From a virus (taxonomy: Duplodnaviria > Heunggongvirae > Uroviricota > Caudoviricetes), in IMG/VR virus record IMGVR_UViG_2711768014_000012: 36,201 nucleotides of DNA, one strand, 5' to 3'. The first letter of the stretch is position 1. Every line of letters starts with the position of its first letter. Shown one piece after another: positions 32,501 through 36,201 of the stretch. The position numbers are program-made.

Positions 32501-35500
32501 GAAGTCGCTTCCGGTGTGATGAACACGAAAACCAAAGGTAAGGTCTCACTCAACCTGGAAATCGAACCATTTGATGAGAACCGTGTGAAAATCAAACACA
32601 AACTCTCATATGTTCGCCCGACTAACCGCGGGAAAATTTCCGAAGAAGACACCACCGAAACGCCGATGTATGTCAATCGCGGTGGTCGCCTGACTATTCT
32701 GCAGGAAGACCAGGGACAATTACTGACTCTTGCCGGTGAACCTGACGGAAAACTCCGCGCAGCAGGTCATTAATATCGTTCTTAATTAACCGATTATTTA
32801 TCTCATCACTGAATATCTTTATATAGTGAGGACTTATTATGTCTCAGAACTTAGACGCAACCGCAATTAATCAAATCCATGCCCTTATTTCTGCTCAGGG
32901 TGTTAATGAAATTATCAGTAAGATTGGTGCCGATGCTGTGGCATTGCCTGAGAATTTCCGCATTCATGATCTGGAAAAATTAAATTTAAATCGTTTCCGT
33001 TTCCGTGGTGCGCTTTCCACTGCCAGCATCGATGACTTTACTCGTTATTCTAAAGATCTTGCAGATGAAGGCACCCGCTGCTTTATCGATGCTGATAATA
33101 TGCGTGCCGTCAGTGTTCTTAACCTGGGTACTATTGATGAACCAGGTCACGCAGATAACACCGCCACTCTCAAACTGAAAAAGACAGCTCCGTTCTCTGC
33201 TCTGTTGTCTGTTAATGGCGAGCGTAACTCCCAGAAGTCACTGGCAGAATGGATTGAAGACTGGGCCGACTACCTTGTGGGCTTTGATGCTAATGGTGAC
33301 GCCATTCAGGCAACCAAAGCGGCTGCGGCGATCCGTAAAATCACAATTGAAGCGAACCAGACCGCTGATTTTGAAGATAATGACTTCAGCGGCAAACGCT
33401 CCCTGATGGAGTCTGTCGAAGCGAAGACCAAAGACATTATGCCAGTGGCATTTGAATTTAAATGCGTTCCGTTTGAAGGTCTGAAAGAACGTCCGTTTAA
33501 ATTACGCCTCAGCATTATCACTGGCGATCGTCCTGTACTGGTTCTGCGCATTATTCAGCTGGAAGCGGTACAGGAAGAAATGGCTAACGAATTTCGTGAT
33601 CTGCTTGTTGAGAAATTCAAAGACAGCAAAGTAGAAACCTTTATTGGTACTTTCACCGCCTGATTTCATTACTGCAAATGCCCCTGCGGGGGCATTTACG
33701 GAAGCGATAATTTTAACTATTGCCGCCCCTATAAAGAACCATTAAACAATAACGTGACGTAGCTATTGATAGTAAATGAAGCACTTGCAAAATAATTGCA
33801 TTGCGTATATATACACACATGTGTTGTATTACAGCGATAATGGTAAAGCAAATGATTAACTCTGAAGCAATTGAGCAACTAATGTGGCTATGGTCCTTAT
33901 TTGACATTAAATTCTTATCTATTCTTGCCGCTGCCTTCACTATATATTTTGGCGTGCAAAAAATATCAAAAAAGGTGACAGTGTCGTATTCAGCAAATGC
34001 AAGTAGAATATATGACATGCATATATCAACCATAATCCTGAATAATAAAAGAGATAATGCAATTGCTATATCTTCAATCAATATGGAGGTTGAAGGTAAA
34101 GGGATACTACAAGTTATTAAATTTGACTCCCCTCTTCTTTTAAAGAACTATGATTCTTTAAAAGTTGAACCACCAAAATTTAGCAGCCTTTACAATAATG
34201 ATGGCGTAGTTAAGTTAGATATTTCTGATAAGTTTCATTTTTATATAATCACGACATCTGGAGATGAAATTAAATGTATTTCTGAAAATAAATATGTAGC
34301 ACCAAACATGGAAAACAAAATAGCTACAGACATAAGAAAATTTAATGGCATTGTCTTAACAAACAGAATGTCTTATATTTTTTTCTATGCAAATGACAAC
34401 GGAGAGAAATACTGCATAATAGATGTTTCATTGTTCATAAATGGTGACAACCCATTTCATTTTAATTTTTTAAAAGAAGATGAATTAAGAGATTTTTCTA
34501 GCATCCTTATTAGTTACGGATATCACCAACAGTTTAAAAGTTATGCATTGTTTAAAATAGACAACCATCTTGCTCCTTCTTTGGTTTTAAATAAATCAAT
34601 GATAGAAAATAATATTATTGAAATGAATAAGTAACTCACCGGGTGCAGCCGGTTATGATGGAGAAATGATATGAATACCTTGTTTTTACTGATGGCTGAA
34701 TTCAATACCCCAAACATTGAACTCTCAGCAGTTAGTCAAAAATACTTTGGTATGAGTCCAGCCACAGCAGAAGCAAAAGCAAACGCTTGTAAGTTGCCTG
34801 TACCTACATATCGCATCGGTACATCACAAAAAGCAAAACGTTGCATCAATATTCAGGATCTTGCGGAATACATAGACAAAAGACGAGAAGAAGGACGTAT
34901 CGAGTGGGAACAGGTCAGAACAGGCAAACAGAAGGGCAAAGAACATCACTAAAGAAAAAACCCGCCTAAAGGCGGGTTTTCAAAAAGCACCAGCTATGAT
35001 CATGCTGCTTTGCGACGACGAAGCTTACCCTGCTGCTCTTTACCAGAGACAGTAGCGTGAGTGAACGCATTAGGAGCAGCCTTCATCAGAACTTCAACAG
35101 CAGCACCCATACCTGCGAATGCTTTCATTGTGTCGAACTTAACCTGTGGCTTGGTTGCTTTTTGATCTTCCATAGAAAACTCCAGAAGCTATACCGAAAC
35201 AATTCCTGTTGTTTACTCATCATCAATAGATGATACGCAATATTTATTTTTAAATTTAAGGTTCTTTGGCGTAACTTCATCAGATATATCAAAACCGTCC
35301 AGAATTCTATTGAATGTAGCTTCTGGCATATCATCATGAACGGAAATCTCACCCGATCGCTGCTTTCTAACCATGTTATCCACTCGCCAAATTATAGCTT
35401 CAGCGTAAACAACATAACTTGGATGCTTGATAAAGCGATGATCACCAGAATTCAAGACGCAAGACGGATCGTGGGGGACACCATCCTTGATACTAGAAAT

Positions 35501-36201
35501 ATTAACAACTAAAACACAATAACAATCGTTAACGGGGTAATAAACAGGATCATTACAAATCACATGAAGATGATTGCATGGCCCAGTTGGGGCAAGCACA
35601 GTTCCTTTCCTGTATGGCTGATAATCCGTCATGATAATTGCAAAGAAAATTCCTTAAGTTTCTGAGATTCTTCCATTTTGCCAATTATACGATTAGCCTC
35701 ATCCTCGCTTTTACCCTCACTGATCAGCATTTCTTTCAGGTCTATAGGCTTACGAGAATTGCCAGGATTGTGCCACTCTGGACAAACGCTTTCTAAATGC
35801 GTCATGTTTGCGAGATCAAATCGGTTCATATGCCCATACAGAGAATAGATTTCATCTAAAATCCGGATATCTGCACGGCTCAACTCATCAAAGACCTCGT
35901 CTGCATCCATTTCCCTCGGATCTGAACGCAACAACACATCATGCCCGTTCGTCTCTATCAGGTTGTACCAGTAGTCACCAATACCTTCAGCCTTACCACG
36001 AATCAAGTTCAGCGTATTCGACATGACTGGACCAAATTTCATAGAGTAAAGGCTATCTTCGCCGATCATCCTGCCATGCTTCAAAATCGACTTGCGGTTA
36101 GACAGATAGAGCAGCTTCATCAATTTCAGATATGCCATGCGCCCACCTCGCTTAAGAAGTAGGTATGCAGCCATTTGAGCTACTTTTTCTTCGCAAAACA
36201 T

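What the first reader, a model, noticed from the sequence alone, without database searches (positions are those of the whole stretch)
35000..36201. Panacea-domain gene coupled to an unknown 139-aa partner and a 57-aa ORF: candidate toxin-antitoxin or defence operon
Three co-directional minus-strand genes end at a bidirectional terminator (34955-34980). The first encodes a protein whose N-terminal half fits the Panacea/DUF4065 pattern (KLLYL...FGPV), a domain established as a promiscuous antitoxin paired with unrelated toxins (PanA/PanT) and common in phage accessory regions. The second (139 aa, Cys/His-rich, no recognisable family) overlaps it by ATGA, implying translational coupling. The third (57 aa, good SD) is missing from the ORF track. 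The module sits at the outer edge of the early-left arm, where lambdoid prophages carry lysogen-expressed accessory genes. The partner's function is unknown.
Basis: partly seen in the sequence, partly recalled or inferred. Interest (0 to 1): 0.75.

Follow-up and report, generated by a model that had tools for sequence, protein, structure and literature searches.

The report
Known-type PanA–PanT toxin-antitoxin pair in prophage
The two overlapping genes are an ordinary member of an already published toxin-antitoxin class (a Panacea antitoxin with a MazF-fold "T6" toxin) carried as swappable cargo at the end of an E. coli prophage, and the third small gene belongs to the phage backbone, not to the pair.

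Summary
Three minus-strand genes (190, 139 and 57 aa) end at a hairpin terminator, and the first two overlap by ATGA. The 190-aa protein is a Panacea/DUF4065 protein (Pfam 67.9 bits, cut-off 25.7).

All 35 evaluable homologues (30 genomes, 5 phages) have a PanA gene directly upstream.

The 57-aa gene is not part of the module. It is absent from all 37 other T6 loci. Elsewhere it follows an unrelated 177-aa gene.

The pair sits between xis and the dusA attachment site of a lambdoid prophage. Sibling prophages carry other cargo in this slot, including the experimentally validated E. coli T3 PanAT.

Toxicity, RNase activity and any defence role of this copy are inferred, not shown.

Verdict: new member of a known kind; low interest.

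The parts
35629..36201 (-). panA: 190-aa antitoxin candidate, with a Panacea/DUF4065 domain (residues 27-137) and a conserved ~50-aa C-terminal extension
   Evidence: Pfam PF13274 at 67.9 bits against a cut-off of 25.7. The FGPV motif is read in the sequence. RefSeq names it 'Panacea domain-containing protein' WP_000458583.1. The motif TH..PEW.DP..SS.PI and the C-terminal tail are conserved in 35 T6-linked PanAs.
35213..35632 (-). panT: 139-aa toxin candidate, MazF/Kid-like fold, PanT cluster T6
35629..35632 (-). ATGA stop/start overlap of panA and panT (translational coupling)
   Evidence: Read. The same ATGA junction is seen in 16 of 30 homologous loci, 15 counted by the script plus L016 read by eye from its printed junction. 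Two more have TAATG, and most others have gaps of 21 nt or less.
35000..35173 (-). orf57: conserved small backbone gene (phrog_2741). It is probably co-transcribed but is not part of the PanAT module
   Evidence: phrog_2741 E 8e-36. Its length is conserved in homologues down to 67% identity in Salmonella, Enterobacter and Hafnia. It is absent from 37 other T6 loci and is linked to a phrog_4350 177-aa gene elsewhere.
34956..34981 (.). Hairpin terminator shared by the minus-strand operon and the convergent xis gene
   Evidence: 11-pair stem with 6 GC pairs and a T-run on the minus strand. xis ends at 34952.
34671..34952 (+). xis (PrtN-type excisionase), the left landmark of the cargo slot
   Evidence: PF11112 at 82 bits; phrog_1300 excisionase.
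35186..36201 (-). Swapped cargo cassette. The left border is about 15 nt upstream of the orf57 ATG. The right border lies about 210 nt beyond the window end
   Evidence: Three-way alignment of sibling prophages with different cargo but shared flanks.

Best explanation
A bicistronic type II toxin-antitoxin module of the PanAT kind, toxin cluster T6. panA (35629-36201) and panT (35213-35632) are translationally coupled through ATGA. PanA is a stand-alone Panacea domain with a conserved C-terminal extension of about 50 aa; it binds PanT and holds it inactive. PanT is a 139-aa MazF-fold protein which, when freed, blocks translation, most likely as an endoribonuclease. The pair is exchangeable cargo in the slot between xis and the dusA attachment site of a lambdoid prophage. 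It is probably expressed in the lysogen, and is followed on the same transcript by the unrelated backbone gene orf57 and a terminator. Shown here: domain identity, fold, family membership, strict gene linkage and cassette structure. Taken from the literature for a 43%-identical homologue: toxicity, neutralisation and inhibition of translation, with complex formation reported for PanAT pairs generally. Inferred: toxicity of this copy, RNase chemistry, which part of PanA neutralises, expression in the lysogen, and the biological role (abortive-infection defence or prophage stabilisation).
Against: No experiment exists on this pair. In Kurata et al., 8 of 25 tested PanTs were not toxic in E. coli, including an E. 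coli and a Salmonella-phage pair of a different cluster, T1. No sequence-level link to MazF/PemK was found. The residues conserved across the family (H21, D55, C58, H65, S72, Y76) include no near-invariant Arg, unlike the Arg/Thr catalytic pair I recall for MazF. RNase chemistry is therefore an inference from fold alone. There are no PADLOC hits, so a defence role is conjecture. The candidate promoter is no better than chance.
Confidence: 0.78

Rival explanations
1. A three-gene system in which orf57 is a functional third component (regulator, chaperone or accessory factor) of the PanAT pair.
For: orf57 is co-directional and lies 39 nt downstream of panT, with no terminator between them. It has its own GGAG. 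The sequence conserved upstream of it is too short to hold a promoter, so it probably rides on the same transcript.
Against: There is no orf57 homologue in 37 other T6 PanAT loci, and no recurrent downstream gene of any kind. The closest relatives, in Kosakonia and Pluralibacter, have panT directly against xis without orf57. orf57 occurs without PanAT in mEp460, O157:H7, Salmonella, Enterobacter and Hafnia, always after a phrog_4350 177-179-aa gene. The cassette border falls between orf57 and panT.
Confidence: 0.06
2. The pair is PanAT-like by ancestry, but in E. coli the 139-aa protein is not a growth-arresting toxin. It may be a domesticated or conditionally active RNA-binding or RNA-processing protein, or an effector active only against incoming phage components.
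For: A third of the PanTs tested by Kurata et al. were non-toxic in E. coli. The conserved residue set differs from canonical MazF. At least one E. coli genome has a truncated panT with an intact panA (H115).
Against: A 43%-identical homologue is toxic in E. coli itself, the assay host. The strict PanA linkage in 35 of 35 loci, and the coupling, are what a toxin that needs constant neutralisation predicts. The putative catalytic residues are intact in the window copy.
Confidence: 0.13
3. A SocAB-like type VI system, in which PanA acts as a proteolytic adaptor delivering the toxin to ClpXP rather than inhibiting it by binding.
For: SocA is the founding Panacea protein, and Kurata et al. note that the two modes need not be exclusive.
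Against: The NCBIfam SocA equivalog scores 13.5 bits against a cut-off of 190. The partner has a MazF fold, not that of SocB, which is cluster T10. [quoted passage not shown]
Confidence: 0.03

Closest known systems
PanA-PanT of Pseudomonas moraviensis (PanT cluster T6; Kurata et al. 2022, PNAS, PMC8832971)
   Same: Same toxin family: 43% identity, E 6e-34, with the conserved H/D/C/H residues retained. Same PanA subfamily, with an N-terminus of MIFSEQKVAQ against MFCEEKVAQ here. Same antitoxin-first order with overlapping or abutting genes, and the same MazF-like fold prediction.
   Different: Different host and replicon context: an E. coli dusA prophage here, while Kurata scored the P. moraviensis pair as 'NotPhage'. 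The window copy has not been tested. The junction is ATGA (-4) rather than TAATG (-1).
E. coli STEC O31 PanAT (PanT cluster T3, membrane toxin; PanA WP_000287252.1; Kurata et al. 2022)
   Same: It occupies the very same slot, between xis and the dusA att site, in sibling E. coli prophages (L043). It too is a Panacea antitoxin followed by a toxin.
   Different: The PanAs share only about 20% identity. That toxin is a 182-aa membrane protein unrelated to the MazF-fold T6 protein. The genes are 22 nt apart instead of overlapping, and orf57 is absent there.
MazEF / Kis-Kid (PemIK) type II toxin-antitoxin systems
   Different: There is no sequence membership in Pfam PemK/MazF. The antitoxin is Panacea, not an AbrB/RHH-type MazE or PemI. 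No conserved Arg is seen in the toxin family. The toxin has an extra C-terminal helical segment (residues ~104-131).
SocAB of Caulobacter crescentus (type VI toxin-antitoxin)
   Same: The antitoxin carries the same Pfam domain (SocA_Panacea).
   Different: It is not a SocA orthologue (13.5 bits against 190). The toxin is unrelated to SocB. Direct binding is expected rather than ClpXP-mediated degradation.

Membership tests
PanAT (Panacea-antitoxin type II TA; Kurata 2022) | The antitoxin carries a Panacea/DUF4065 domain above Pfam's gathering score | tested here: met
   PF13274 at 67.9 bits against 25.7, residues 27-137.
PanAT (Panacea-antitoxin type II TA; Kurata 2022) | The conserved GPV signature motif is present in Panacea | tested here: met
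   FGPV at residues 56-59. GP is invariant in the 35 aligned PanAs.
PanAT (Panacea-antitoxin type II TA; Kurata 2022) | [quoted passage not shown] | tested here: met
   ATGA overlap here. The same architecture is found in 30 genome loci across Alpha-, Beta- and Gammaproteobacteria and in 5 phages.
PanAT (Panacea-antitoxin type II TA; Kurata 2022) | Reciprocity: relatives of the putative toxin are also found next to PanA | tested here: met
   35 of 35 evaluable homologues have PanA immediately upstream. The 2 other loci are cut by contig ends.
PanAT (Panacea-antitoxin type II TA; Kurata 2022) | The toxin arrests growth, and the cognate PanA neutralises it and forms a complex with it | not testable with these tools
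   Toxicity and neutralisation were shown only for the P. moraviensis homologue, and complex formation for PanAT pairs generally (PMC8832971).
PanT cluster T6 | Sequence homology to listed T6 members | tested here: met
   55% identity to the L014 protein, which is exactly WP_101821906.1 and is listed as T6. 43% identity to the P. moraviensis protein.
PanT cluster T6 | An EndoA/PemK/MazF-like fold | tested here: met
MazF/PemK endoribonuclease family (Pfam PemK_toxin) | A sequence match to the family model | tested here: not met
   No Pfam hit at E up to 1. A profile search against PDB sequences finds no MazF.
MazF/PemK endoribonuclease family (Pfam PemK_toxin) | The catalytic Arg plus Thr/Ser pair | tested here: inconclusive
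   Residues conserved across the family are H21, D55, C58, H65, S72, Y76 and S117, with no near-invariant Arg. No structural superposition was available to map them onto the MazF active site.
MazF/PemK endoribonuclease family (Pfam PemK_toxin) | A cognate MazE/PemI-type (AbrB or RHH) antitoxin | tested here: not met
   The upstream gene is a Panacea protein.
SocAB type VI TA | A SocA equivalog | tested here: not met
   NF047745 at 13.5 bits against a cut-off of 190.
Tripartite TA / PanAT with accessory third gene | The third gene is co-conserved with the pair | tested here: not met
   0 of 37 other T6 loci hold an orf57 homologue or any recurrent downstream gene. orf57 is found without PanAT in many genomes.
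Catalogued anti-phage defence systems (PADLOC-DB 2.0) | A match to any defence-system protein model | tested here: not met
   No hit for any of the three proteins at E up to 1.

The most novel reading that the evidence does not exclude
The T6 PanT may not be a conventional MazF-type RNase. Its family-wide invariant His21/Asp55/Cys58/His65 set (with Ser72 and Tyr76) on a MazF scaffold, without a conserved Arg, could mean a different catalytic chemistry or target. In the lysogen the pair could act as an abortive-infection defence in which the Panacea domain senses an incoming phage. The natural T6/T3 swap at one prophage slot would then be a defence-cassette exchange point.
Probability: 0.15. 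Interest if true: 0.5.

Novelty: new member of a known kind. Interest (0 to 1): 0.2.

Why it matters
It matters little for discovery. The class (PanAT, toxin cluster T6) was published in 2022 with a validated representative, and RefSeq already labels the antitoxin. Its modest value is practical. It gives an E. coli-native T6 PanAT, present in about 4% of complete E. coli genomes, that can be tested in its own host. It also sits in a prophage slot where sibling phages carry the validated T3 PanAT or an unrelated two-gene cargo. That makes it a natural setting for studying Panacea partner swapping and asking whether these cassettes protect lysogens from other phages. The evaluation also corrects two annotation points: the panT start codon, and the assignment of orf57 to the module.

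Tried and rejected
- **Cluster T1 membership.** I tested whether the partner belongs to Kurata's cluster T1, whose E. coli MOD1 and Salmonella phage Emek pairs were scored 'not toxic'. hhalign of the family profile against Emek PanT gave probability 0.1, so this was rejected.
- **Sequence-level link to MazF.** Pfam, NCBIfam, a profile search against PDB sequences, and hhalign against E. coli MazF all found nothing. The MazF link rests on fold only.
- **RNA element or RNA antitoxin.** An Rfam scan of the module and its upstream region gave only sub-threshold hits on the terminator hairpin.
- **Promoter for the operon.** The one candidate in the identical A14 locus (TTGACC-17-TAAACT, L001 9757-9729) is no better than chance: 4 sites found against 2.6 expected.
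- **Structure of orf57.** The model has pLDDT 62, a short helix with disordered basic ends. That is too poor for a fold search.
- **GNAT guess for the 177-aa partner of orf57.** The guess came from a YYESFGF motif recalled from memory. It has no Pfam, PADLOC or PDB sequence support and stays untested.
- **Tool limits.** The afdb50 fold library was unavailable.
- **Later literature.** A search for later work on this class found only the 2022 and 2023 papers from the same group.

Full report
**Observation.** The sequence shows the ATGA stop/start overlap at 35629-35632. It also shows CTGGAGTTTTCTATG in front of the 57-aa ORF. An 11-pair hairpin terminator lies at 34956-34981, between this operon and the convergent xis gene. 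The window is 100% identical to E. coli A14 and to several other E. coli chromosomes, and 97.8% identical to phage SKA5. In A14 the 190-aa ORF has a GAGG eight bases upstream of the ATG that coincides with the window edge. PGAP uses the same start, so the N-terminus is complete.

**The antitoxin gene.** The 190-aa protein matches Pfam PF13274 (SocA_Panacea) over residues 27-137 at 67.9 bits, against a gathering score of 25.7. It carries the FGPV signature. It is not a SocA orthologue: NF047745 scores 13.5 bits against a cut-off of 190. Aligning 35 PanAs that accompany the same toxin family shows a conserved motif, TH..PEW.DP..SS.PI, just after the domain. A C-terminal tail of about 35 residues follows, conserved in length but variable in sequence.

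**The partner.**
- The 139-aa protein has no Pfam, NCBIfam, PADLOC or PDB sequence match.
- A word-indexed search found 62 clusters. A full profile search found 2703 cluster representatives at E ≤ 1e-3, and 929 at E ≤ 1e-10. The family is therefore large.
- Homologues conserve the first 11 residues (MTxYxPYRKGT), which supports the ATG at 35632 over PGAP's downstream GTG.
- AlphaFold2 on 54 sequences gave pLDDT 90 and pTM 0.84.
- The fold is MazF-like with extra C-terminal helices, but no sequence-level link to MazF could be found.
- Across 131 diverse representatives the near-invariant residues are H21, D55, C58, G63, H65, F67, S72, Y76, G113 and S117. There is no conserved Arg.

**Link to the published class.** Kurata et al. 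2022 (PMC8832971) grouped Panacea-associated toxins into 88 clusters. Cluster T6 was annotated by HHpred as 'EndoA/PemK/MazF-family RNases'. It contains the P. moraviensis toxin, which is toxic in E. coli, is neutralised by its PanA and selectively blocks 35S-Met incorporation.

Dataset S1 lists 'Yersiniaceae bacterium 2016Iso4' WP_101821906.1 (gene overlap -1) and Pantoea septica LMG 5345 (overlap -4) under T6. My scan of genomes returned both strains (L014, L015), 55-56% identical to the window protein and with those same overlaps. An exact-sequence look-up shows that the L014 protein is WP_101821906.1.

The window protein is also 43% identical (E 6e-34) to P. moraviensis SDU72800.1. Kurata's corrected N-terminus for that PanA, MIFSEQKVAQ, mirrors MFCEEKVAQ here. 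The partner is not in cluster T1, whose E. coli and Salmonella-phage pairs were non-toxic.

**Linkage.** All five phage homologues of the 139-aa protein have a PF13274 gene immediately upstream. They come from Yersinia, Pseudomonas, Klebsiella, Vibrio and a Helicobacter prophage. Among 32 genome loci from Alpha-, Beta- and Gammaproteobacteria, 30 have a PanA homologue directly upstream; the other two are cut by contig ends. Sixteen junctions are ATGA (15 counted by the script plus L016 read by eye), two are TAATG, and most of the rest have gaps of 21 nt or less. tblastn with PanA recovers the same phages as tblastn with the partner, so the two proteins diverge together.

**The 57-aa gene.** It is a real, length-conserved small protein (phrog_2741). 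Homologues reach down to 67% identity in Salmonella, Enterobacter, Cronobacter and Hafnia. It is not part of the PanAT module, for three reasons:
- No homologue exists in 37 other T6 loci, and no other gene recurs downstream of panT. In Kosakonia and Pluralibacter, whose PanT is 86-87% identical, panT abuts xis directly.
- In mEp460, O157:H7, Salmonella, Enterobacter and Hafnia, orf57 follows a 177-179-aa phrog_4350 protein at about 140-195 nt. This holds in three different phage positions.
- A three-way alignment of sibling prophages places the cassette border about 15 nt upstream of the orf57 ATG.

In the window, PanAT therefore appears to have replaced the usual upstream partner of orf57. 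The AlphaFold model of orf57 is poor (pLDDT 62), so its function stays open.

**Genomic setting.**
- The window is a lambdoid prophage, with tail, head, lysis, replication and immunity genes.
- The module lies between the PrtN-type xis and the att site in dusA. The phage order is xis, [orf57, panT, panA], dusA fragment, int.
- In the lysogen the displaced host 5' end of dusA is co-directional with panA and directly upstream of it, with no terminator between them. Read-through from the dusA promoter is therefore possible but untested. The only promoter-like site in the cassette is no better than chance.
- The slot is polymorphic. Among 5426 complete E. coli genomes, 208 carry this T6 cassette. 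Another 79 carry the T3 PanAT, whose PanA (WP_000287252.1) is the antitoxin validated by Kurata et al. A further 358 carry the 177-aa gene.
- The two PanAs share only about 20% identity, so whole cassettes are exchanged, not toxins alone.

**Mechanism.** The best-supported reading is a type II PanAT module. Coupled translation yields PanA and PanT. PanA binds and silences PanT. Free PanT arrests translation, probably by RNA cleavage. The domain, fold, family, linkage and cassette structure were shown here. Toxicity, neutralisation and the translation target are known only for a 43%-identical homologue, and complex formation for PanAT pairs generally. The RNase chemistry, the neutralising element (the Panacea core or the C-terminal tail), expression in the lysogen, and the role (abortive-infection defence or prophage stabilisation) are inferences. 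Ernits et al. 2023 (PMC10440598) propose that Panacea may act as a sensor. Nothing here tests that idea.

**Novelty.** The class, the toxin cluster and a validated member are published, and RefSeq already names the antitoxin. A literature search found no work on this E. coli copy. It is a new member of a known kind. The points of mild interest are the T6/T3 exchange at a single prophage slot, the non-canonical conserved residues of T6 toxins, and the orphaned orf57.

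Noticed in passing
L043:3875-4919 (E. coli strain OXA-181), the same slot as window 35186-36201: Sibling prophages carry a different PanAT in exactly this xis-dusA slot. Its PanA, WP_000287252.1, is the E. coli STEC O31 antitoxin validated by Kurata et al., and its partner is a 182-aa T3-type membrane toxin. This cassette is present in 79 of 5426 complete E. 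coli genomes.
   Followed up: partly
L008:3361-4264; L042:3861-4764; L044-L051 (about 2780-3674 in each): orf57 (phrog_2741) is consistently preceded by a 177-179-aa phrog_4350 protein. This holds in three different phage positions and several genera, which suggests a separate mobile two-gene module of unknown function. The 177-aa protein has no Pfam, PADLOC or PDB sequence match. Its C-terminal YYESFGF motif looks GNAT-like from memory only.
   Followed up: partly
window 33801-34634 (+): A 277-aa ORF (PGAP aa) of unknown function (phrog_14996, no Pfam) lies between yfdQ and xis in a strikingly AT-rich stretch. GC there is 28-32%, against about 45-50% in neighbouring sequence. It looks like a separately acquired moron.
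   Followed up: no
L001:9856-9960 (E. coli A14), just beyond the window end: The displaced host 5' fragment of dusA is co-directional with panA and about 250 nt upstream of it, with no terminator-like site between them. Host dusA transcription could therefore read into the cassette in lysogens.
   Followed up: partly
window 35213-35632 (-): RefSeq/PGAP annotates this gene as 128 aa from an internal GTG (WP_014640052.1). The 11 upstream residues are conserved in homologues and the ATG overlaps the panA stop, so the 139-aa form is the better call.
   Followed up: yes
L044:1650-2609 and L045:1551-2609 (Hafnia prophages): A RelA_SpoT-domain protein (PF04607; PADLOC candidate system PDC-S33, E 1e-112) lies directly upstream of the 179-aa + orf57 pair, between the Q antiterminator and the holin. 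This is another accessory or defence-like cluster.
   Followed up: no
hit H115, E. coli strain 7_33_46A (NZ_CP074819.1 5111034-5111743): At least one genome keeps an intact panA but lacks the 3' 279 nt of panT. A truncated toxin with a retained antitoxin is the decay pattern expected for a toxin-antitoxin pair.
   Followed up: no
L041:3045-3327 (Bathymodiolus symbiont): The T6 toxin homologue is split into two short ORFs downstream of an intact PanA, so it is probably a pseudogene.
   Followed up: no
protein cluster of the 139-aa sequence: The 90%-identity cluster that holds the 139-aa protein also contains 190-aa Panacea proteins and a 232-aa 'DUF4065' entry. This is probably a clustering artefact of the overlapping genes or of mis-called fused ORFs.
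   Followed up: no
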